Origin: a plasmid
DNA: 64,000 nucleotides
Sequence record: NZ_CP040186.1
Strand: one strand, 5' to 3'
In this document: positions 41,857-48,924 of the stretch, piece after piece
Layout: every line of letters starts with the position of its first letter
How positions within the stretch are numbered: the first letter of the stretch is position 1
Made by a program: the position numbers and the translations under genes
The notes under the pieces: model-generated
Database searches by the model: none
What the model saw: the letters and a program-made list of their open reading frames with translations, nothing else
What the model was told of the DNA's origin: nothing

Positions 41857-42597
41857 TCAGCCGGCCGGGGGCAGGGAGCGAAGGATCTCCGCGGCATCTC
41901 GCCCATCACCGGTAAAGGGAACGGCCAGGGTGGCAGCCATGTCCAGCGCAAATACCCGGGTATAGACTTCCATCGAGCGCGGATCCTTATGCCCGGCCAG
42001 TGCCTGGATGACCTTCCTGGGCTGCCGGTGATAAAGCATGTGCATAATATAGCTGTGACGGAAAGTATGCGGCGTCACGGGGATCGAAAAATGCACGCCG
42101 TCAGCTTCAGCCCGCTTCACCGCCTGTTTCAGCCAGTTGCGCATTGTCTCATCCGTGACCGGCCATAACGGCTCACGCCGGCGGGGGCGGGTGGTGACCA
42201 TCCAGCTTTCCATCTGACGCACAAAACTGGCATCCGTCAGCGGTACCAGACGCACTTCATCTTTTGGCGGCCGGCCACGACGTGCCCGCACTTTTTCCGA
42301 CAGCACCCGAACAAAAGGGCGCAGACCATCCAGGTCGAACGATTCCGGGGTGAGCGTCCGGGCTTCACCGATACGGATCCCGGTATTCCACATGGTGGCG
42401 AACAACATGTGGTGACGCTGGTCAGGCATATACCAGAGGAGGGCGCTCACTTCCGGCGCCAGGAGGTAAGCCGGCGTGGCACCTGTTGAGGTGGCCATCC
42501 GCCGGAGTGCCACCGCGGTCGCAAAATCAACGCCCGGGGCGATCGGCAGCAGGGAGACGCGTTCTGGTGAATTCTGCAAGGGAATGATGCTGTTCAT
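41857..42597 (-). CDS. tyrosine site-specific recombinase (phage-integrase family), plasmid multimer resolution type
   Basis: C-terminal catalytic R...HxxR...Y arrangement ([18 protein letters not shown]). 246 aa. Sits next to the RepFIB replicon as in P307-type plasmids. Confidence 0.65.
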
Positions 42598-42984: not shown

Positions 42985-43258
42985 CGGCATCCTGATGCTG
43001 ACTTAATATACGGATAATAATAATTTCAGTATCAGTCTGCAGAAAATAAAGCATATGTCATTCAACGGGTAGTGCCAATATGTATTCCCCCAGTTCAGGA
43101 CGGGGAGTACCGATATTATGAGCACTCCAAAACAAAAAAAAAGCGGAGAGCTGATTAATATATCTGTCGGCCCTCTCCTCACCGAAAATGGTGGTAGCCG
43201 TAATACCAGATATCCTCAAGATCCTGACTGGCTTTAGGTGTGAGTTTAACGTTTTTCA
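42985..43258 (-). pseudogene. parE: parE (ParE/RelE-family toxin) remnant with frameshifts
   Basis: Reverse translation from GTG at 43258 gives VKNVKLTPKASQDLEDIWYYGYHHF.., ParE-like. The frame breaks within about 25 codons. An A9 tract (43134..43142) and a second shift lie further on. No intact ORF is listed. Confidence 0.4.
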
Positions 43259-43518
43259 CCGGCAGGCTTTGTGCCTGCTTTAACTTTTTTCAGGAACGTG
43301 TCCTTTTCCCACACCACAGGCTCGCCGCTGCTCAGGCCTTCTGCCAGTAAATTCCGCAGGGTCTGGAGACGTGATTCTGCCTGTTTCTCGCGAAGGAGAC
43401 GAAGTGACTCGCGGATCACCTCACTCTGCGTACGATAATCACCTGATTCAATGAGATATTCTATGAAGTCACGGAGTTCGTGTCCGAGATCCACTGTTAT
43501 TGTTCTGGCGATATACAA
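43246..43518 (-). CDS. parD: ParD-family (COG3609, RHH) antitoxin
   Basis: 90 aa. ESGDYRTQSEVIRESLRLLREKQ is ParD-like. Overlaps the parE remnant start. Confidence 0.55.
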   Translation of the reverse strand: MYIARTITVDLGHELRDFIEYLIESGDYRTQSEVIRESLRLLREKQAESRLQTLRNLLAEGLSSGEPVVWEKDTFLKKVKAGTKPAGEKR

Positions 43519-43742: not shown

Positions 43743-45415
43743 TTAAGAACACTCAATATCTTCCTCATCATCGCGTTCATAGCGATTTCCAGTAATTATT
43801 CTTATATCTAGAGCTGAATGGAGCATCTTATGAATTTTCATCAGACTGGCACGTTTGATTTCATTTTTTGTTGTTGGTGTACTGTCTCTGAATGCCCATT
43901 TGTAAGGTGTCAGGCTACTAATCTTGAAACCTACAATTCCAACTGTATAAAGACAAAGCATTATTTCATTAATGACATCCTGTTCTCTTGATTCTCCTTC
44001 TAAAAATTTGTTTGCTGTAATAGCACATGGATCAGTAGTATTTTGAATGGATAATTCACTTAATACCGCGTCTATAGTGTTTTTTGACATAGATGTTCTA
44101 CTAAATTTATCAGGAAGATTTCTCAGTATTTCAATTGTTTCCTCAAAGGAAGGGTATATATCCCCCCATTCTTCTTTTAGAGATCTCAGGCGCTTTAAGG
44201 AATAGACTGCCTCCGCTTTATGAATTGAATCCCATGATATTCTTTCTCTGTTAAGTGCCACATTAAAACACTCATTCACGTATTGTAAAACGTCTCTTGG
44301 TCGAAATAATGTTCTTTCAATTATATATTCAATAGGGGTGATGCCTAAATGCCCCCCCTTTGCTTTTGGAAATATATCTTTAATAGTAACATCTTCTCGA
44401 GTATATTGTCTTTTGTATACCTCTCGCACTCGTTTTTGGACTAATTCGGTTAGTTGTTGAGAGGTCCATTTTATATCAAGTATATATGACTCATATTTTT
44501 CCTCCTGAAAACCAGAGCCTCTTGTAATATTAAATACTGATCGTAAAAGGTCCAGGCGTAAAGCAGCTATTATTTTGATATTTTTAATTTTACGAAACAC
44601 CTTAATCTCTTCAATTAGCGCTCTTATAAATTTATATCTTGTATCATTTTCCGCCCAGTTATCATCCAGTTGATCAATAATGATGTAATAGTTTTTTTGT
44701 GGGTCATCAAAAGAATATTCAGCAAGCAATGAAAGTATTTCATTAAGTTTTTGAATCTGTAACCTACTGACAACCTCATTTGCTCGTTTCTTAACATCAT
44801 GTATTTGTTCTTCGGTTAGTTTTTTTGCATATTCAGCACTAAGATTTACAGCACTGTATTCTGTGCCAATCGAAGCCTTAGTATCACGTTCCAGTTTGTA
44901 TGTTATTTCCCTAAGATGGGTGTCAGTATCTATCCAAAATTTATCTCCCCACTCCCTAAAATACTCAAGGGCTTTTCGTTTTATCTCATCTTTTTTAGCC
45001 TGCTAAGCAAGTTTGAGAAAAAGCTATTCGTATCAGATTCACTCTTAATGTCATGGCGTATTTTTAATAATTCCATAATTAAAATATGTCGCCATAATAC
45101 TTTATAAAACATATCAAGATTAACATTTAACTCTTCAAAAAATGAAATTATATCTGAATGCTCTAGAAAACCTATTGAAATATCATTAGGGTCAAGTTTT
45201 TTATATTTATGTGCTTTGTTTGCCACCATGTGCAACAAAGCACTTTTTCCTGCGCCTGTTCTTCCTATAACTATAGATGATGTATCAGATGGGTTTAATA
45301 GTTTAGAAAGATAACCACTATCAATAAAACAGTTTTCCAAGAGAAGTGTGTCTGATTCAGCGTCCAATTCGCCGATTTTAAAATTTTGCCTTATTATTAT
45401 AGGGTTTATGCTCAT
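43743..45415 (-). pseudogene. AT-rich P-loop NTPase (NACHT/STAND-like Walker A/B spacing), split into two ORFs by a frameshift/stop near 44730-44980
   Basis: ORF 44981..45415 carries Walker A GRTGAGKSALL. ORF 43743..44729 carries Walker B-like YYIIIDQLDDNW plus a long helical C-terminal region. The two are adjacent, same strand, different frames. Confidence 0.5.
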
Positions 45416-45639
45416 AATTTCCTCAACGCTATTAATTGGTTTTATTATTACATTATAATTGATTTTTGATAATTGTATTTAAATTGATAGAAATTGCGAT
45501 GGAGATCATAGAATAAAAGTATTGAGTGTTTCAATTTTTATTAATAGTTGCAACTATTAGGATAACTGCTTCTCGCTTGTTCTTTGTCGTCAATATTTTC
45601 AGCTCAATATCATCTCGAACGTTCATGCTTCAGTATGGC

Positions 45640-45780
45640 TTCTGCTATTCGTATTCAGAAACGTGCGTCTCTTCTTCAAGCGGCTCAAACCATTTTTCTT
45701 TAGCGACTTCATTGAACTTCTTACAAATGGTGTAAAGAGTTACGTTAGAAAGAGCATAGTTACGGGAAAACTGACGGGCA
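45640..45780 (-). mobile_element. short remnant of a recombinase/transposase HTH segment
   Basis: Reverse translation ...ARQFSRNYALSNVTLYTICKKFNE.. resembles a resolvase/transposase C-terminal HTH. No intact gene. Confidence 0.2.
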
Positions 45781-45979
45781 AAATTGGCACTCTTGGCCTA
45801 TCGCTCAGCGCCTGGTTAATGCGCGCACCAGTGTTCCAGAGCTTCGACAGCAGCATTTTGTGCTAAAGATCCGGGCCGTAGTAAGCTCACTTCCACCGCC
45901 AGCACGGCAGGGTAATCGATGACCACCGGCTACTGAGCAACCGAGACTGTCTGCAGTACGAGTATAATGATTCCAGTTA

Positions 45980-46789
45980 TCAGGATACATCTCTGTCTGT
46001 TGATATGTTCAGCGCTGAAGCAATGATTTCCCGGTTTTCCTCACTACGCCAGTTTCCGAAATAGTCCACCTCCTGGCACAGGGAACGGTGTGCTGCCTCT
46101 ATAAGGTCAGACACTCTCTGAAGAGCATTCTGTAGCTGCTGCGCTGATATACCTCTTGGCACATCATGCTCATCCACCCCGTTACGGTGCACAAGGTCGT
46201 TTCGCCAGTCTGCAATAATGTCCAGCGGCTTAACCGGCCAGACGGGCGGAGTATGCAGCACGGCGCTGAAATAGCGCTCAATGGTTTTAACGTTATGAAA
46301 CGTCATTCGGGAAACATAATTGCGTGCGGCGGGCCTGAACATATCAAGTTCCATCTCACGCAAAGACTGCTTTTTGTTTTTTTTGACGCGTTCTGAATTC
46401 AGGTAATATTCATCCCTGAAGCGTTTAAGAGGCCAGTCATGTTCCAGCAGAGCCCTGGCGCAGTACATCAGGTATGCTTCCATGACAGTCACTGCATGGA
46501 CGAAAGACATCCTGTACACCAGTTCTGGCTGCTCTCTGTCGAGCAGGGCATGTAGCTTCTGCAGCTCCTGTCTTGCGTGCCGGTGACGCTGATGAACATC
46601 GTTCAGGGAAACCACGAACAGTCCATGTTCATGATCCCACTGAGCCTGATCAGCAAGCGCCTCCTGCTCCCAGTAATACAGGTTCGCGGCCTCCTCCCAT
46701 GCTTCAGACTCAGGGACAATATCCGGGTAATTTTCCTCAAGCCATTCATTAAATCGTTCCGCTTCAATATCAATCATCATGTCTTTCAT
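45980..46789 (-). CDS. HEPN-motif protein (R-x4-H: RNDLVHRNG), Abi-like candidate effector
   Basis: 269 aa. Single Rx4HxxG motif near the C-terminal third, as in Abi/HEPN RNases. ATG lies 17 nt downstream of the partner gene's stop, with an AAGG RBS. Confidence 0.45.
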   Translation of the reverse strand: MKDMMIDIEAERFNEWLEENYPDIVPESEAWEEAANLYYWEQEALADQAQWDHEHGLFVVSLNDVHQRHRHARQELQKLHALLDREQPELVYRMSFVHAVTVMEAYLMYCARALLEHDWPLKRFRDEYYLNSERVKKNKKQSLREMELDMFRPAARNYVSRMTFHNVKTIERYFSAVLHTPPVWPVKPLDIIADWRNDLVHRNGVDEHDVPRGISAQQLQNALQRVSDLIEAAHRSLCQEVDYFGNWRSEENREIIASALNISTDRDVS

Positions 46790-46806
46790 ATGAGAAATCC
46801 CGCCTT

Positions 46807-47169
46807 CTATTTCTGTTGATCAGCTGCAGCTGCTTTTACGATGGCGTCTATTGCCTTTTCAACCGAAAACGGTCTCAGCTCACCGTTGCTCAGCTGGACC
46901 TTATAGCAGGGATGTGACACCCAGCGGCCATTCGTAAAACGAGGTTCATTCTGAACCGTAAAATGTTTAATCAGACGACCGTTCAGTTCCCAGCCCGGAC
47001 AACTGTCACAATAGAGGGTGAACAGTTCCTTCAGCTCTTCAAAATAGTCACCTTCTGAAATGATCCCGACAGCTTTCACGTCAGGTCGTTGATCCATGTA
47101 ATAGCCGCGGGCTTTCTGTTTTGATGCAAATTCCTTCTGACCAATCTTCACCGGTATTGAACGTCCCAT
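46807..47169 (-). CDS. small protein (120 aa) encoded upstream of the HEPN-motif gene; unknown family
   Basis: ATG at 47169 preceded by a perfect AAGGAG SD. No family recognised. Adjacent, same strand and tightly spaced with 45980..46789. Confidence 0.45.
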   Translation of the reverse strand: MGRSIPVKIGQKEFASKQKARGYYMDQRPDVKAVGIISEGDYFEELKELFTLYCDSCPGWELNGRLIKHFTVQNEPRFTNGRWVSHPCYKVQLSNGELRPFSVEKAIDAIVKAAAADQQK

Positions 47170-47593
47170 TCTGAACTCCTTTGTGTTTAGCTGACAAATA
47201 GTCACTCGCCACAACCAGTTTCACGACATTAACTCTTCTCATCATCATGAAGGATTATTTTCCAAGCCGTGATTATTTCTCACCTGATAACAAGCAGCCA
47301 TATAACCACGTAGTTAAATTACCGGGTCCCCGTTTTCACCTGATCCGACTTTCTATAATTTAACGGATTTCCGGAAGTGTACCACGCACACGAAATAACC
47401 ATATCGCCCTTTTATGGTGGTGAGCGGCCGGTCACGGGGCAGGGGAAGGACACAACATATAGCGTCACAGCCAGCTGAGAACACCGCTACATCTTGTGTT
47501 GCCGGGCCGCAGCGCGCCGGAGGCCGGAAAGCAGATCCGGGACTACCGCTAAACCGCAACGGCGAAAAAATGTGGTCCCGTGCGCAAAAGTGC

Positions 47594-47636
47594 GGTACAA
47601 ATGGCTGTACATTATGTAAAGCCAGATGACTGTACA
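47594..47636. promoter_or_regulatory. three TGTACA palindromic hexamers immediately upstream of the DinJ-like fusion gene (candidate operator)
   Basis: ggTACAaatggcTGTACAttatgtaaagccagatgacTGTACAaaaagg ends 15 nt before the start codon. RHH/DinJ-like proteins bind such repeats. Confidence 0.25.
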
Positions 47637-47649
47637 AAAAGGAAGGAGC

Positions 47650-48924
47650 ATGACCGGTTTTTTTGAACGTAAAAAGCGGGCCAAAAACGCCCAGCTGACC
47701 GTGCGTCTCGATGAGCAGCTGAAGAAACGCGCCGAACTGCGTCTGGAGGCAATGGGGATGACCGCCACGGAAGCGGTGGAGCAGCTTTACCGCTTCATCG
47801 CCGATCACGGCCGGATGCCCGTCACGGAGCGTATCGTCACATTTGACATCCAGTCACAGCGCGGCCGCGCCATCGCCCTCAATCCCGCCGACGCTGTGAC
47901 CGAAAACACCCGGCGGTTTCTGCAGTCGCTGGGAGCTGTGGAAGTGGTCTGCTGCGATCCCGCTGCATTTGAACAGGCGGTACTGGAGTACTTCAGCCTG
48001 TATGTGGCCGACCAGGCTGCCTGTTTACTGGCCGGTGTACTGAACGTCACGTTCATGGTTAATGCCGCCAGTCGCGTGAAAGATGACTGGCATGACAGGC
48101 TGCTGTCCCTGTTACAGCGCGACTTTGATTTCAGCGAAGAACAGTCAGTGACGTTCATTAACAGCATCGTGGACAGCGAACATGTCGAACCTGCCATCGT
48201 CAGTCGAAATAATACGGCCTGGCGGAGCGGAAAAAGCACCGGGTCCGGCGCCGGCGCTGAACAGGCCTTACTGGATAACACCAACGTCAGGGTCTTCTAT
48301 CCCTCCGGGGAAGCGCCCGTCTCCGGCAAGATCGGTGCCGCCGTCCTGCAGCGTTTCCTGACGTTCCTGGCGGAGCGGGGCGTCAGCTGCAGCGATCCGC
48401 AGAGACTGACCGAAAGCGCCGGCCGTGCATGGGGCGTGCGTGAAAATATGATCGGGAATATGCCCCCGGACATGCAGCAGGCCATAAACGATGGTGTCAT
48501 TTTTGAGGCCAGCGCTGACACGCCGGACTTTTCCCCTGAGCTGGCGGCGGCGTTTGGCTTCACACAGGTCCAGGCAGAAGCGGTGCTGAAACCCGCCCTG
48601 ACCGCCAGGGATCTCCCCGGTTTCCTGCAGCGCTTTCTGGCGTTCCTGGCCGACCGGGGTATCAGCTGCAGCAATCCCCGGCGGTTTACTGAAAAGGTCA
48701 CGGAATACGCCAGCCATGAGGGACCGCACCGGCTTATTGCAATGTTGATGTCGCGCATCAGGGATGAGGGGGTCAGTTTTGTCTTTCACAATGAATCCCC
48801 GGACGAACTGCCGCGCCTGGCCGCGTCACTGCCCGGCGAACTGGCCGATACCTTCGGGTTTACGGGATGGCAGGCAACAACAATACTGCGTCAAATCCAG
48901 CCGGCACGGCCGGGGCAGGATTAG
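47650..48924 (+). CDS. DinJ/RelB-like N-terminal domain fused to a long C-terminal region with two about 90-aa internal repeats
   Basis: MTGFFERKKRAKNAQLTVRLDEQLKKRAELRLEAMGMTATEAVEQLYRFIADHGRMPV aligns with DinJ (…ARIDEDLKNQAADVLAGMGLTISDLVRITL…). Repeats begin LQRFLTFLAERGVSCSDPQRLTE and LQRFLAFLADRGISCSNPRRFTE. No RelE/YafQ partner adjacent. Confidence 0.5.
   Translation: MTGFFERKKRAKNAQLTVRLDEQLKKRAELRLEAMGMTATEAVEQLYRFIADHGRMPVTERIVTFDIQSQRGRAIALNPADAVTENTRRFLQSLGAVEVVCCDPAAFEQAVLEYFSLYVADQAACLLAGVLNVTFMVNAASRVKDDWHDRLLSLLQRDFDFSEEQSVTFINSIVDSEHVEPAIVSRNNTAWRSGKSTGSGAGAEQALLDNTNVRVFYPSGEAPVSGKIGAAVLQRFLTFLAERGVSCSDPQRLTESAGRAWGVRENMIGNMPPDMQQAINDGVIFEASADTPDFSPELAAAFGFTQVQAEAVLKPALTARDLPGFLQRFLAFLADRGISCSNPRRFTEKVTEYASHEGPHRLIAMLMSRIRDEGVSFVFHNESPDELPRLAASLPGELADTFGFTGWQATTILRQIQPARPGQD

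What the first reader, a model, noticed from the sequence alone, without database searches (positions are those of the whole stretch)
45980..47169. Two-gene operon: a 120-aa protein with strong RBS followed 17 nt later by a 269-aa HEPN-motif protein, a candidate undescribed Abi/TA-like module
The downstream protein has a single R-x4-H-x-x-G motif (RNDLVHRNG) in its C-terminal third. That is the hallmark of HEPN RNases used by abortive-infection and toxin systems. The upstream small protein has no recognisable family and a perfect AAGGAG Shine-Dalgarno. Tight spacing (stop TAG, 17 nt, ATG) suggests co-expression as neutraliser plus effector. I do not recognise either protein as a member of a named system.
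Basis: inference. Interest (0 to 1): 0.7.

Follow-up and report, generated by a model that had tools for sequence, protein, structure and literature searches.

The report
HEPN RNase cassette in plasmid ccd slot
The two genes are real, but they look like two independently shuffled gene cassettes, a genuine HEPN-type RNase and a DUF3223/HamC-like small protein, sitting where the F plasmid keeps its ccdAB addiction genes, rather than a dedicated toxin–neutraliser pair.

Summary

The large protein is a genuine HEPN protein. It is a divergent member of Pfam PF18735 (RiboL-PSP HEPN). R196, H201, R202 and G204 are the only invariant columns across 60 relatives, and its best fold matches are HEPN domains.

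The small protein does belong to a known family. Its model matches one solved structure strongly, the DUF3223 protein 2k0m, the family PADLOC calls HamC.

The pair is not a conserved unit. HEPN is on 1,048 plasmids, the small gene on 178, and the two together on about 63. A 93%-identical HEPN has an unrelated upstream gene, and 86–89%-identical small genes are followed by other genes.

Both genes lie in a variable slot between an rfsF/oriV-1-like element and a ResD resolvase gene. F carries ccdAB in that slot. A 14-nt motif marks nearly every gene boundary there. The 17-nt spacer results from a 39-nt deletion of the HEPN leader.

Most likely HEPN is a latent abortive-infection or addiction RNase, and the small protein an independently assorting operon-leading gene. 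No function was tested. Verdict: new member of a known kind, moderate interest.

The parts
46807..47169 (-). 120-aa DUF3223/HamC-like small protein gene, the first gene of the slot operon
47176..47181 (-). AAGGAG Shine-Dalgarno sequence, 6 nt upstream of the small gene's ATG
   Evidence: Read directly from the sequence.
46791..46804 (-). 14-nt junction motif GGCGGGATTTCTCA between the two genes; it makes up most of the 17-nt spacer
   Evidence: Exact match in the window. The same motif (<=2 mismatches) lies at nearly every internal gene boundary in related rfsF-slot-resD operons. In relatives it is followed by a leader of about 40 nt with an RBS and an ATGGGAAGC start; 39 nt of that leader are deleted here.
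45980..46789 (-). 269-aa HEPN protein gene (RiboL-PSP HEPN family, PF18735): N-terminal helical hairpin (about aa 2-62) plus HEPN core (about aa 65-245)
46178..46204 (-). Codons for R196-N-D-L-V-H201-R-N-G204, the predicted catalytic R-x4-H motif
   Evidence: R196 and H201 are invariant in 23 homologs. R196, H201, R202 and G204 are the only invariant columns in 60 relatives down to about 15% identity.
45803..45979 (-). Remnant of an F-type ResD recombinase N-terminus directly after HEPN; the start codon is lost (TGATAA instead of TGATGA)
   Evidence: tblastn of F ResD and L002 ResD matches aa 1-30 and 53-79. Junction sequences compared. In relatives the HEPN stop overlaps the ResD ATG.
47196..47557 (-). 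Conserved non-coding rfsF/oriV-1-like element upstream of the operon, with an internal 15-nt palindrome at 47450-47499
   Evidence: nhmmer profile hit, E 2.6e-90. The element is present upstream of the first slot gene in nearly all ResD-linked loci. It is homologous to F plasmid nt 45917-46230, just upstream of ccdA, E 2.4e-57. Palindrome. No Rfam match.
41857..42597 (-). Intact ResD-like tyrosine recombinase (47% identical to F ResD). It is now separated from HEPN by an inserted block carrying a Sll1717-family ATPase gene (split in this window) and ParD/ParE.
   Evidence: BLASTP against F ResD. NCBIfam Xer-like hits. Annotated context in pECO-6357.

Best explanation
The two genes are separate one-gene cassettes. 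They sit side by side in the variable slot of an F-type plasmid maintenance operon: rfsF/oriV-1-like element, then the slot, then the resD multimer resolvase. In F itself this slot holds the ccdA-ccdB addiction genes.

Shown:
- The 269-aa gene encodes a HEPN protein of the RiboL-PSP/PF18735 family with an intact, invariant R-x4-H motif.
- The 120-aa gene encodes a divergent DUF3223/HamC-like protein.
- The two families assort independently of each other across plasmids.

Inferred:
- HEPN is a latent RNase. It is probably a dimer with a composite active site, is co-transcribed with the resolvase, and becomes active on a trigger such as phage infection or plasmid loss. It would then cleave cellular RNA and stop growth, acting either in abortive infection or in post-segregational killing.
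- Its restraint is more likely intrinsic (for example its own N-terminal hairpin domain) or supplied by another factor than by the DUF3223-like protein.
- The DUF3223-like protein usually heads such operons whatever gene follows. It is therefore more likely a general operon-leading factor, either a regulator or a nucleic-acid-binding accessory.
- The adjacency and 17-nt spacing in this window came from cassette shuffling followed by a 39-nt deletion of the HEPN leader.
For: HEPN identity:
- Pfam PF18735 match over almost the full model, found in 37 of 60 distant relatives.

DUF3223 identity:
- PADLOC HamC2 E 5e-5.

Independence of the two genes:
- HEPN is on 1,048 plasmids, the small gene on 178 and the pair on about 63.
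- The arrangement of family-b small gene + HEPN + resD is on 471 plasmids, including pLVPK and pK2044.
- None of 10 species-level HEPN loci carries the small gene.
- The HEPN identity matrix shows that partner type is scattered across the HEPN tree.
- After the DUF3223-like gene come at least 12 different gene families, or ResD directly.
- HEPN keeps its catalytic motif where the upstream gene is absent (L004) or interrupted (L005).

Slot identity:
- The upstream element is homologous to the F region before ccdA.
- The downstream integrase in relatives is 88% identical to F ResD, and a ResD remnant follows HEPN in the window.
- The published F layout is rfsF, oriV-1, ccdAB, resD (PMC4398462).

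Cassette structure:
- A junction motif lies at nearly all internal gene boundaries.
- The HEPN leader is deleted in the window.

Defence-type cargo and precedent:
- The membrane-protein cassette matches PADLOC PDC-S67.
- PF18735 domains are listed in the validated systems PD-T4-2, PD-T4-5 and PD-T7-3 and in ApeA (PMC10952713).
- PD-T4-5 is a plasmid-borne Abi gene distantly related to AbiF/D (PMC9519451).
- DARNA (PD-T7-3) is a trigger-activated HEPN tRNase (bioRxiv 10.64898/2026.02.22.705581).
Against: - In every locus where the rfsF-like element is intact, HEPN has some small gene directly upstream, and cassette boundaries are precise. HEPN might therefore need a partner in that position.
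- The DUF3223-like + HEPN + ResD arrangement recurs in a second lineage (Yersinia, 17 contigs, HEPN only 75% identical).
- In Pectobacterium, a HEPN only 37% identical to this one lies two genes downstream of a DUF3223-like gene.
- Outside this slot, DUF3223-like genes neighbour two other HEPN families: a PD-T4-5-like Abi_2 protein in Vibrio and a TPR-HEPN_LA2681 protein in Shewanella. That hints at a real DUF3223-HEPN affinity.
- The ccdAB positional analogy itself fits an antitoxin-toxin order.
- No RNase activity, toxicity, trigger or expression has been tested. L004 lacks the promoter-bearing element, so HEPN there may simply be silent.
Confidence: 0.55

Rival explanations
1. The pair is a dedicated two-gene toxin-antitoxin or abortive-infection module in which the DUF3223-like protein binds and neutralises the HEPN RNase.
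For: - Gene order and size fit: a small gene upstream, the effector downstream, on the same strand.
- The locus occupies the ccdA-ccdB position of F.
- The pair recurs in the Yersinia lineage with a normal 48-nt spacer.
Against: - The pair is found on only about 6% of HEPN-bearing plasmids.
- A 93%-identical HEPN has an unrelated upstream gene.
- Small genes 86-89% identical to this one precede other genes.
- The commonest E. coli context has the small gene followed directly by ResD, with no effector.
- The small gene also stands alone beside Rep genes.
- The 17-nt coupling is a deletion artefact.
- The DUF3223 fold has no precedent as an antitoxin in the literature I searched.
Confidence: 0.15
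2. The DUF3223-like protein is a promiscuous accessory, a sensor or regulator. It works with whichever effector cassette follows it (HEPN RNase, PDC-S67 membrane protein and others), much as HamC accompanies Hachiman. In this window it would modulate HEPN without being specific to it.
For: - The small gene is followed within 4-66 nt by effector-like genes in most loci.
- Two of those effector families are defence-linked: PDC-S67 and HEPN.
- Outside the slot it neighbours a PD-T4-5-like HEPN and a TPR-HEPN_LA2681 protein.
- PADLOC reports DUF3223 (HamC) next to 3.8% of Hachiman systems (PMC8565338).
- In Tetrahymena Mlp1 the DUF3223 region promotes correct folding of pre-tRNA in a suppression assay (bioRxiv 10.1101/2022.06.07.494954). 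That fits an RNA-related role.
Against: - The following genes also include predicted lipoproteins and secreted proteins, and small genes of unknown function.
- The small gene occurs with ResD alone, or entirely alone.
- PD-T4-5 and PDC-S67 are single-gene entries in PADLOC, and most HEPN copies lack a DUF3223-like partner.
- No function has been shown for HamC (PMC8565338).
Confidence: 0.2
3. HEPN's real cognate partner is the fast-evolving small-protein family usually found upstream of it (families a-e and k, which share a GH-x-x-h-W-L pattern). The window lineage has lost that partner together with the HEPN leader, RBS and native start codon. Here HEPN would be attenuated or decaying, and the DUF3223-like gene would be a bystander.
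For: - A small gene of these families abuts HEPN in L002, L003, L006-L012, L046 and L047, which include the 471-plasmid Klebsiella lineage.
- These families align collinearly with each other over 50-75 columns at marginal E-values, and none aligns with DUF3223.
- The 39-nt leader deletion removes the ancestral RBS and start codon.
Against: - Homology among families a-e and k is unproven: hhalign probabilities are below 10%.
- Family b also occurs without HEPN, upstream of other genes.
- The Yersinia lineage has DUF3223-like + HEPN with an intact leader and no such partner.
- The window's HEPN allele is intact and near-identical on 60-80 plasmids.
Confidence: 0.15
4. HEPN is restrained by an RNA antitoxin encoded upstream, as reported for AbiF-type HEPN proteins, and not by any protein.
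For: - RiboL-PSP HEPNs are described as distantly related to AbiF/AbiD (PMC3710099).
- AbiF in C. difficile is neutralised by a non-coding RNA carrying abiF motifs (PMC12373285).
- A conserved leader precedes every HEPN gene.
Against: - No Rfam family matches 45500-48200 on either strand at E <= 1.
- The leader shows no conserved stable structure: alifold -1.1 kcal/mol, and z-scores near or above 0 for eight of nine leaders.
- The conserved part of the leader is the junction motif that unrelated cassettes share.
- Most of the leader is deleted in this window.
- There is no Abi_2 Pfam match.
Confidence: 0.04

Closest known systems
RiboL-PSP HEPN family (Pfam PF18735; 'Ribo L-PSP-HEPN' of Anantharaman et al. 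2013, PMC3710099)
   Same: The match covers almost the whole Pfam model (5-190 of 191). The R-x4-H motif is invariant and the fold is HEPN. 37 of 60 distant relatives score on PF18735.
   Different: This sequence scores 24.6 bits, below the 28.4-bit gathering cut-off. It has no endoRNase L-PSP fusion and is not in a ParB operon, the two contexts that gave the family its name. It carries its own N-terminal helical hairpin domain and sits in an rfsF-resD plasmid operon.
PD-T4-5, PD-T7-3 (DARNA), PD-T4-2 and ApeA: HEPN-containing anti-phage systems
   Same: PMC10952713 lists all four as carrying the PF18735 HEPN domain. PD-T4-5 is plasmid-borne, related to AbiF/D and acts by abortive infection (PMC9519451). 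DARNA is a latent HEPN tRNase activated during infection (bioRxiv 10.64898/2026.02.22.705581). These systems are the model for how this protein may work.
   Different: No PADLOC model for any of these systems matches this protein, even at E <= 1. The domain architectures differ; DARNA, for example, has an N-terminal HEPN domain and a large C-terminal domain. No phage-defence phenotype is known for this family.
DUF3223 / HamC, the accessory gene of type II Hachiman (PADLOC)
   Different: Pfam's DUF3223 model does not match any of 14 family members. No hamA or hamB lies nearby. This subfamily lives mainly at the head of rfsF-resD plasmid operons.
F plasmid rfsF/oriV-1 - ccdA - ccdB - resD module
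   Same: The upstream non-coding element is homologous (E 2.4e-57). The downstream resolvase in relatives is 88% identical to F ResD. The layout is the same: a two-gene insert between the element and resD, with the last insert gene translationally coupled to resD (PMC4398462).
   Different: The cargo is unrelated to CcdA or CcdB. The slot contents are combinatorial and are bounded by a 14-nt junction motif that the F ccd region lacks. In this window resD survives only as a remnant, and a paralogous recombinase lies 3.4 kb further on.
HEPN-MNT (HepT/MntA) type II/VII toxin-antitoxin systems
   Different: The upstream protein is not a nucleotidyltransferase. The HEPN protein is twice the size of HepT and belongs to a different HEPN family. 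The partner gene is not conserved.

Membership tests
HEPN superfamily | Conserved R-x4-6-H catalytic motif | tested here: met
   R196 and H201 are invariant in 23 homologs and in 60 relatives down to about 15% identity, where R196, H201, R202 and G204 are the only invariant columns.
HEPN superfamily | All-alpha HEPN helical-bundle fold | tested here: met
HEPN superfamily | Metal-independent endoribonuclease activity | not testable with these tools
   Needs a biochemical assay. Activity is inferred only from the intact motif.
Pfam PF18735 HEPN_RiboL-PSP | Score at or above Pfam's gathering cut-off | tested here: inconclusive
   The window protein scores 24.6 bits against a cut-off of 28.4 (E 2.8e-5) over 5-190 of 191 model positions. 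12 of 23 close relatives and 37 of 60 distant relatives (best E 9.5e-12) match. Several homologs carry a precomputed PF18735 assignment.
Pfam PF18735 HEPN_RiboL-PSP | Contexts that named the family: fusion to endoRNase L-PSP, or an operon with ParB (PMC3710099) | tested here: not met
   No L-PSP domain. The nearest ParB-type gene, sopB, lies about 8 kb away in a separate operon.
DUF3223 / HamC | DUF3223 fold | tested here: met
DUF3223 / HamC | Match to the family's sequence models | tested here: inconclusive
   PADLOC HamC2 E 5.1e-5. Pfam DUF3223 is not matched by any of 14 members. A profile search of PDB sequences puts 2k0m on top, but at E 0.95.
Hachiman type II | hamA (DUF1837) and hamB (helicase) adjacent to hamC | tested here: not met
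   Neither gene appears among the window's neighbours or in the annotated copy pECO-6357. Among about 25 other non-redundant contexts of the small gene, no adjacent gene carried a DUF1837 or helicase assignment, or a matching product name, where Pfam assignments or record annotations were available. The metagenomic loci were not scanned for these domains.
Type II toxin-antitoxin pair | The two genes co-occur as a conserved unit | tested here: not met
   The pair is on about 63 of 1,048 HEPN plasmids and in none of 10 species-level HEPN loci. Partner type is scattered over the HEPN tree. The small gene has at least 12 alternative downstream genes. Exception: a second lineage carries the pair.
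Type II toxin-antitoxin pair | Toxicity of the effector alone and neutralisation by its partner | not testable with these tools
   Needs expression experiments. No multimer structure prediction was available.
HEPN-MNT (HepT/MntA) | Partner is a minimal nucleotidyltransferase | tested here: not met
   The upstream protein has a DUF3223 fold and gives no nucleotidyltransferase match.
AbiF/AbiD (Abi_2) with RNA antitoxin | Abi_2 domain plus an upstream abiF-motif RNA | tested here: not met
   No PF07751 match. No Rfam match on either strand of 45500-48200 at E <= 1. The leader lacks conserved structure.
F-type rfsF/oriV-1 - slot - resD maintenance module | Homologous upstream element and a ResD recombinase downstream | tested here: met
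   Element: E 2.4e-57 to F nt 45917-46230. ResD in relatives is 88% identical to F ResD. A ResD remnant follows HEPN in the window, and a 47%-identical paralog lies at 41857-42597.
F-type rfsF/oriV-1 - slot - resD maintenance module | ResD-dependent recombination at the element | not testable with these tools
   The rfsF core sequence was not given in the papers I could read. Testing this needs a recombination assay.

The most novel reading that the evidence does not exclude
The rfsF/oriV-1 to resD operon of F-like enterobacterial plasmids may be a cassette platform resembling an integron. In this reading, promoterless one-gene cassettes each begin with the 14-nt motif GGCGGGATTTCTCA and a short RBS leader, and are exchanged at that motif, possibly by the adjacent ResD recombinase. 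The cassettes would shuffle defence or addiction effectors (RiboL-PSP HEPN RNase, PDC-S67 membrane protein) together with small partner proteins, including a promiscuous DUF3223/HamC-like protein. The window's gene pair would be one output of that shuffling.
Probability: 0.15. Interest if true: 0.75.

Novelty: new member of a known kind. Interest (0 to 1): 0.4.

Why it matters
- This HEPN family is unstudied, yet it sits on more than a thousand sequenced enterobacterial plasmids. These include the Klebsiella hypervirulence plasmids pLVPK and pK2044. It lies in the position where F keeps its addiction module and is translationally coupled to the multimer resolvase gene. If it is an active RNase, it is a widespread and unrecognised plasmid-stability or phage-defence determinant on clinically important plasmids.
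- The analysis gives the DUF3223/HamC-like fold a second recurrent genomic home, at the head of resolvase operons. That narrows the hypotheses about what HamC does.
- The junction motif suggests a simple, testable mechanism for how plasmids swap small defence and maintenance genes.
- For the scan itself, this case shows that adjacency plus a catalytic motif is not enough to call a two-gene system.

Tried and rejected
- **NCBIfam:** no match for either protein.
- **PADLOC:** no model matched HEPN, including the PD-T4-2, PD-T4-5, PD-T7-3 and ApeA models.
- **PHROGs:** only a weak hit to a family of unknown function for HEPN, and nothing for the small protein.
- **PDB by sequence:** nothing significant for either profile.
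- **Viral relatives of the small protein:** no BFVD structure at E <= 1e-3 and no locus in viral contigs.
- **AFDB structure library:** not available on the machine.
- **Rfam over the locus:** no match.
- **RNA structure in the HEPN leader:** none conserved.
- **Promoter and terminator scans:** only weak consensus matches, not informative.
- **Homology among the alternative small upstream proteins:** profile comparisons gave collinear alignments at low probability, so this stays unresolved.
- **rfsF core sequence:** not given in the papers I could read, so I could not compare the junction motif with it.
- **Hachiman type II membership:** considered and rejected, because no hamAB is present.
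- **HEPN-MNT membership:** considered and rejected, because the partner is not a nucleotidyltransferase.
- **Weak Imm51 similarity in the HEPN N-terminal domain:** best E 3e-4 in 4 of 23 members. I noted it but did not rely on it.
Full report
**1. The observation.**
Both ORFs are on the minus strand.
- The small gene runs from the ATG at 47169 to the TAG at 46809-46807 and encodes 120 aa. A perfect AAGGAG lies at 47181-47176, 6 nt before the start.
- Exactly 17 nt follow the stop (AAGGCGGGATTTCTCAT).
- The large gene then runs from the ATG at 46789 to the stop at 45980 and encodes 269 aa. RNDLVHRNG is residues 196-204.
- A bare R-x4-H is not informative. The protein has three of them, and 69% of shuffled versions have at least one. 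The extended R-x4-H-x-x-G occurs in 1.6% of shuffles.

**2. The large protein is a genuine HEPN protein.**
- Pfam gives HEPN_RiboL-PSP (PF18735) over 5-190 of 191 model positions. The score is E 2.8e-5 and 24.6 bits, just under the 28.4-bit cut-off.
- Among 23 full-length homologs down to 38% identity, R196 and H201 are invariant.
- An exhaustive profile search finds 1,041 cluster representatives at E <= 1e-3.
- In an alignment of 60 of these, down to about 15% identity, R196, H201, R202 and G204 are the only invariant columns. Of those 60, 37 match PF18735, with a best E of 9.5e-12.
- The AlphaFold2 model (pLDDT 85.8) is all-helical: an N-terminal hairpin followed by the core.
- Anantharaman et al. 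describe this family as distantly related to AbiD/AbiF (PMC3710099).
- A 2023 review lists PF18735 in the validated defence systems PD-T4-2, PD-T4-5 and PD-T7-3 and in ApeA (PMC10952713). None of PADLOC's models for those systems matches this protein.

**3. The small protein has a known fold.**
- It has no Pfam or NCBIfam match.
- PADLOC's HamC2 model ('DUF3223 domain') matches at E 5e-5.
- DUF3223 is the HamC accessory found next to 3.8% of Hachiman systems, and its function there is unknown (PMC8565338).
- In a Tetrahymena La protein, the DUF3223 region is needed for tRNA-mediated suppression and is proposed to act as an RNA chaperone (bioRxiv 10.1101/2022.06.07.494954).

**4. The pair is not a conserved unit.**
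- The locus is plasmid-borne. It matches 882 enterobacterial plasmids and, in complete E. coli genomes, plasmids only.
- By tblastn, HEPN is on 1,048 plasmids and the small protein on 178. The whole 1.7-kb arrangement is on 63.
- In ten species-level genomic loci that encode HEPN, none has the small gene.
- Instead, other small ORFs precede HEPN. The commonest, an 'MCxxC' family (family b), forms an arrangement with HEPN and resD on 471 plasmids, including pLVPK and pK2044.
- HEPN proteins 93% and 85% identical to this one have unrelated upstream genes.
- HEPN keeps its motif where the upstream gene is missing (L004) or interrupted (L005). L004 also lacks the upstream promoter-bearing element.
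- Conversely, small genes 86-89% identical to this one are followed by other genes.
- Across about 25 non-redundant contexts, the next gene after the DUF3223-like gene varies widely:

| Gene following the DUF3223-like gene | Loci |
|---|---|
| HEPN of this family (two lineages) | 15 |
| Membrane protein matching PADLOC PDC-S67 (E 2e-27) | 10 |
| 202-aa family | 7 |
| MCxxC small-protein family (b) | 5 |
| A 132-164-aa family (f) | 3 |
| Secreted-protein family | 3 |
| ResD directly | 3 |
| Other, single occurrences | several |

- The second HEPN lineage (Yersinia and relatives, 17 contigs) has DUF3223-like, HEPN and ResD with a normal 48-nt spacer.
- Outside this operon type, the small gene neighbours a PD-T4-5-like Abi_2 HEPN protein in Vibrio and a TPR-HEPN_LA2681 protein in Shewanella.
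- It also stands alone beside Rep genes and in an inovirus-like region.

**5. What the locus is.**
- In relatives, the HEPN stop overlaps the start of a tyrosine recombinase gene (TGATG). That recombinase is 88% identical to F-plasmid ResD.
- A conserved non-coding element of about 360 nt (window 47196-47557) lies upstream of the first slot gene in nearly all such loci.
- The element is homologous, at E 2.4e-57, to F nt 45917-46230, directly upstream of ccdA.
- Published annotation describes this part of F as rfsF sites, oriV-1, ccdAB and resD (PMC4398462).
- Other papers describe rfsF as a module-switching point next to toxin-antitoxin and phage-exclusion genes (PMC9412624, PMC8004404).
- The two genes therefore occupy the ccdAB slot.
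- In this window, only a remnant of the F-type ResD follows HEPN (45803-45979).
- A block with a Sll1717-family ATPase gene (split here, intact in pECO-6357) and ParD/ParE separates HEPN from a paralogous ResD-like gene at 41857-42597.

**6. Cassette structure.**
- The 14-nt sequence GGCGGGATTTCTCA, allowing up to 2 mismatches, lies at nearly every internal gene boundary in these operons.
- It follows the DUF3223-like stop codon in 11 non-redundant sampled loci, counting the window and its near-identical copy L001 as one. It also precedes HEPN, family-b genes, the membrane-protein genes and, in two loci, the DUF3223-like gene itself.
- Every match in the fetched loci was at such a boundary.
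- In relatives, the motif before HEPN is followed by a leader of about 40 nt with an RBS and an ATGGGAAGC start codon.
- The window lacks 39 nt of that leader, so translation must start at the fourth ancestral codon. This deletion produced the 17-nt spacer.

**7. Mechanism.**
- Shown: the identities of both proteins, their independent assortment, and the identity of the slot.
- Inferred: HEPN is a latent RNase that is co-transcribed with the resolvase and activated by a trigger. It would act in abortive infection or post-segregational killing.
- Precedents are PD-T4-5, a plasmid-borne Abi gene related to AbiF/D (PMC9519451), and DARNA, a HEPN tRNase activated during infection (bioRxiv 10.64898/2026.02.22.705581).
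- The DUF3223-like protein is more likely a general operon-leading factor than HEPN's neutraliser.
- Three rivals remain open: a dedicated toxin-antitoxin pair, a promiscuous DUF3223 accessory, and a different cognate partner that this lineage has lost.
- An RNA antitoxin of the AbiF type (PMC12373285) is not supported.

**8. Verdict.**
- HEPN is a new, uncharacterised member of a known family, found in a known type of plasmid module.
- The two-gene system as proposed is not supported.
- The junction motif and the combinatorial slot are the most interesting by-products of this analysis, and they remain unexplained.

Noticed in passing
window 46791-46804 (-); also L002 5947, L012 4964, L023 5363, L036 3956, L042 3863, L044 3869 and others: The 14-nt motif GGCGGGATTTCTCA (<=2 mismatches) marks nearly every internal gene boundary in rfsF-slot-resD operons, whichever genes flank it. 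Its function is unknown: it could be a recombination site, a shared leader or a translational control element.
   Followed up: partly
window 47196-47557 (-): Conserved non-coding element homologous to the F-plasmid rfsF/oriV-1 region upstream of ccdA (E 2.4e-57). It has a 15-nt palindrome at 47450-47499 and no Rfam match.
   Followed up: yes
window 45803-45979 (-): Remnant of an F-type ResD recombinase N-terminus directly after HEPN, with the start codon lost. This shows that the HEPN-resD junction was broken when the downstream block arrived.
   Followed up: yes
window 43743-44729 and 44981-45415 (-): A Sll1717-family P-loop ATPase gene is split into two ORFs here but is an intact 557-aa gene in pECO-6357 (L001). 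It has weak similarity to the NCBIfam 'DS41_1 anti-phage protein' model.
   Followed up: partly
window 43003-43518 (-): A ParD antitoxin gene (43246-43518) lies next to a degraded ParE toxin gene, which is annotated as a frameshifted pseudogene in the near-identical E. coli plasmid.
   Followed up: no
window 47626-48924 (+): A 432-aa ORF has only an N-terminal RelB/DinJ-like antitoxin domain (aa 22-72) and a long unassigned remainder containing an internal repeat-like duplication. It lies in a stretch crowded with overlapping ORFs on both strands.
   Followed up: no
L012 4622-4951; L002 5654-5944; L007 5585-5911; L011 3630-3968; L009 5547-5975; L046 3125-3439: Several small-protein families of about 95-145 aa lie directly upstream of HEPN in other lineages. 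They share a loose 'GH-x-x-h-W-L ... G-x-h-h-A ... W' pattern and may be one fast-evolving family. Profile comparisons were inconclusive.
   Followed up: partly
L068 3860-4600; L031 4393-5067; L039 3894-4571: The single-pass membrane protein family that most often follows the DUF3223-like gene matches PADLOC's phage-defence candidate PDC-S67 (E 2e-27).
   Followed up: partly
window 46553-46768 (-), HEPN residues 8-79: The N-terminal helical hairpin of HEPN gives weak matches to Pfam Imm51, an immunity-protein family, in 4 of 23 family members (best E 3e-4). This might hint at a built-in regulatory domain.
   Followed up: no
NC_005249.1 181169-182382; NC_006625.1 110841-112054: The Klebsiella hypervirulence plasmids pLVPK and pK2044 carry a HEPN 85% identical to this one, with the family-b small gene upstream and resD downstream. 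All three genes are annotated only as hypothetical proteins or integrase.
   Followed up: partly
L001 14750-17319 (pECO-6357): In the near-identical E. coli plasmid, the region upstream of the element carries VapBC and then an 'ATP-dependent nuclease' + 'helicase UvrD' pair that resembles Gabija. In this window a different segment takes their place.
   Followed up: no
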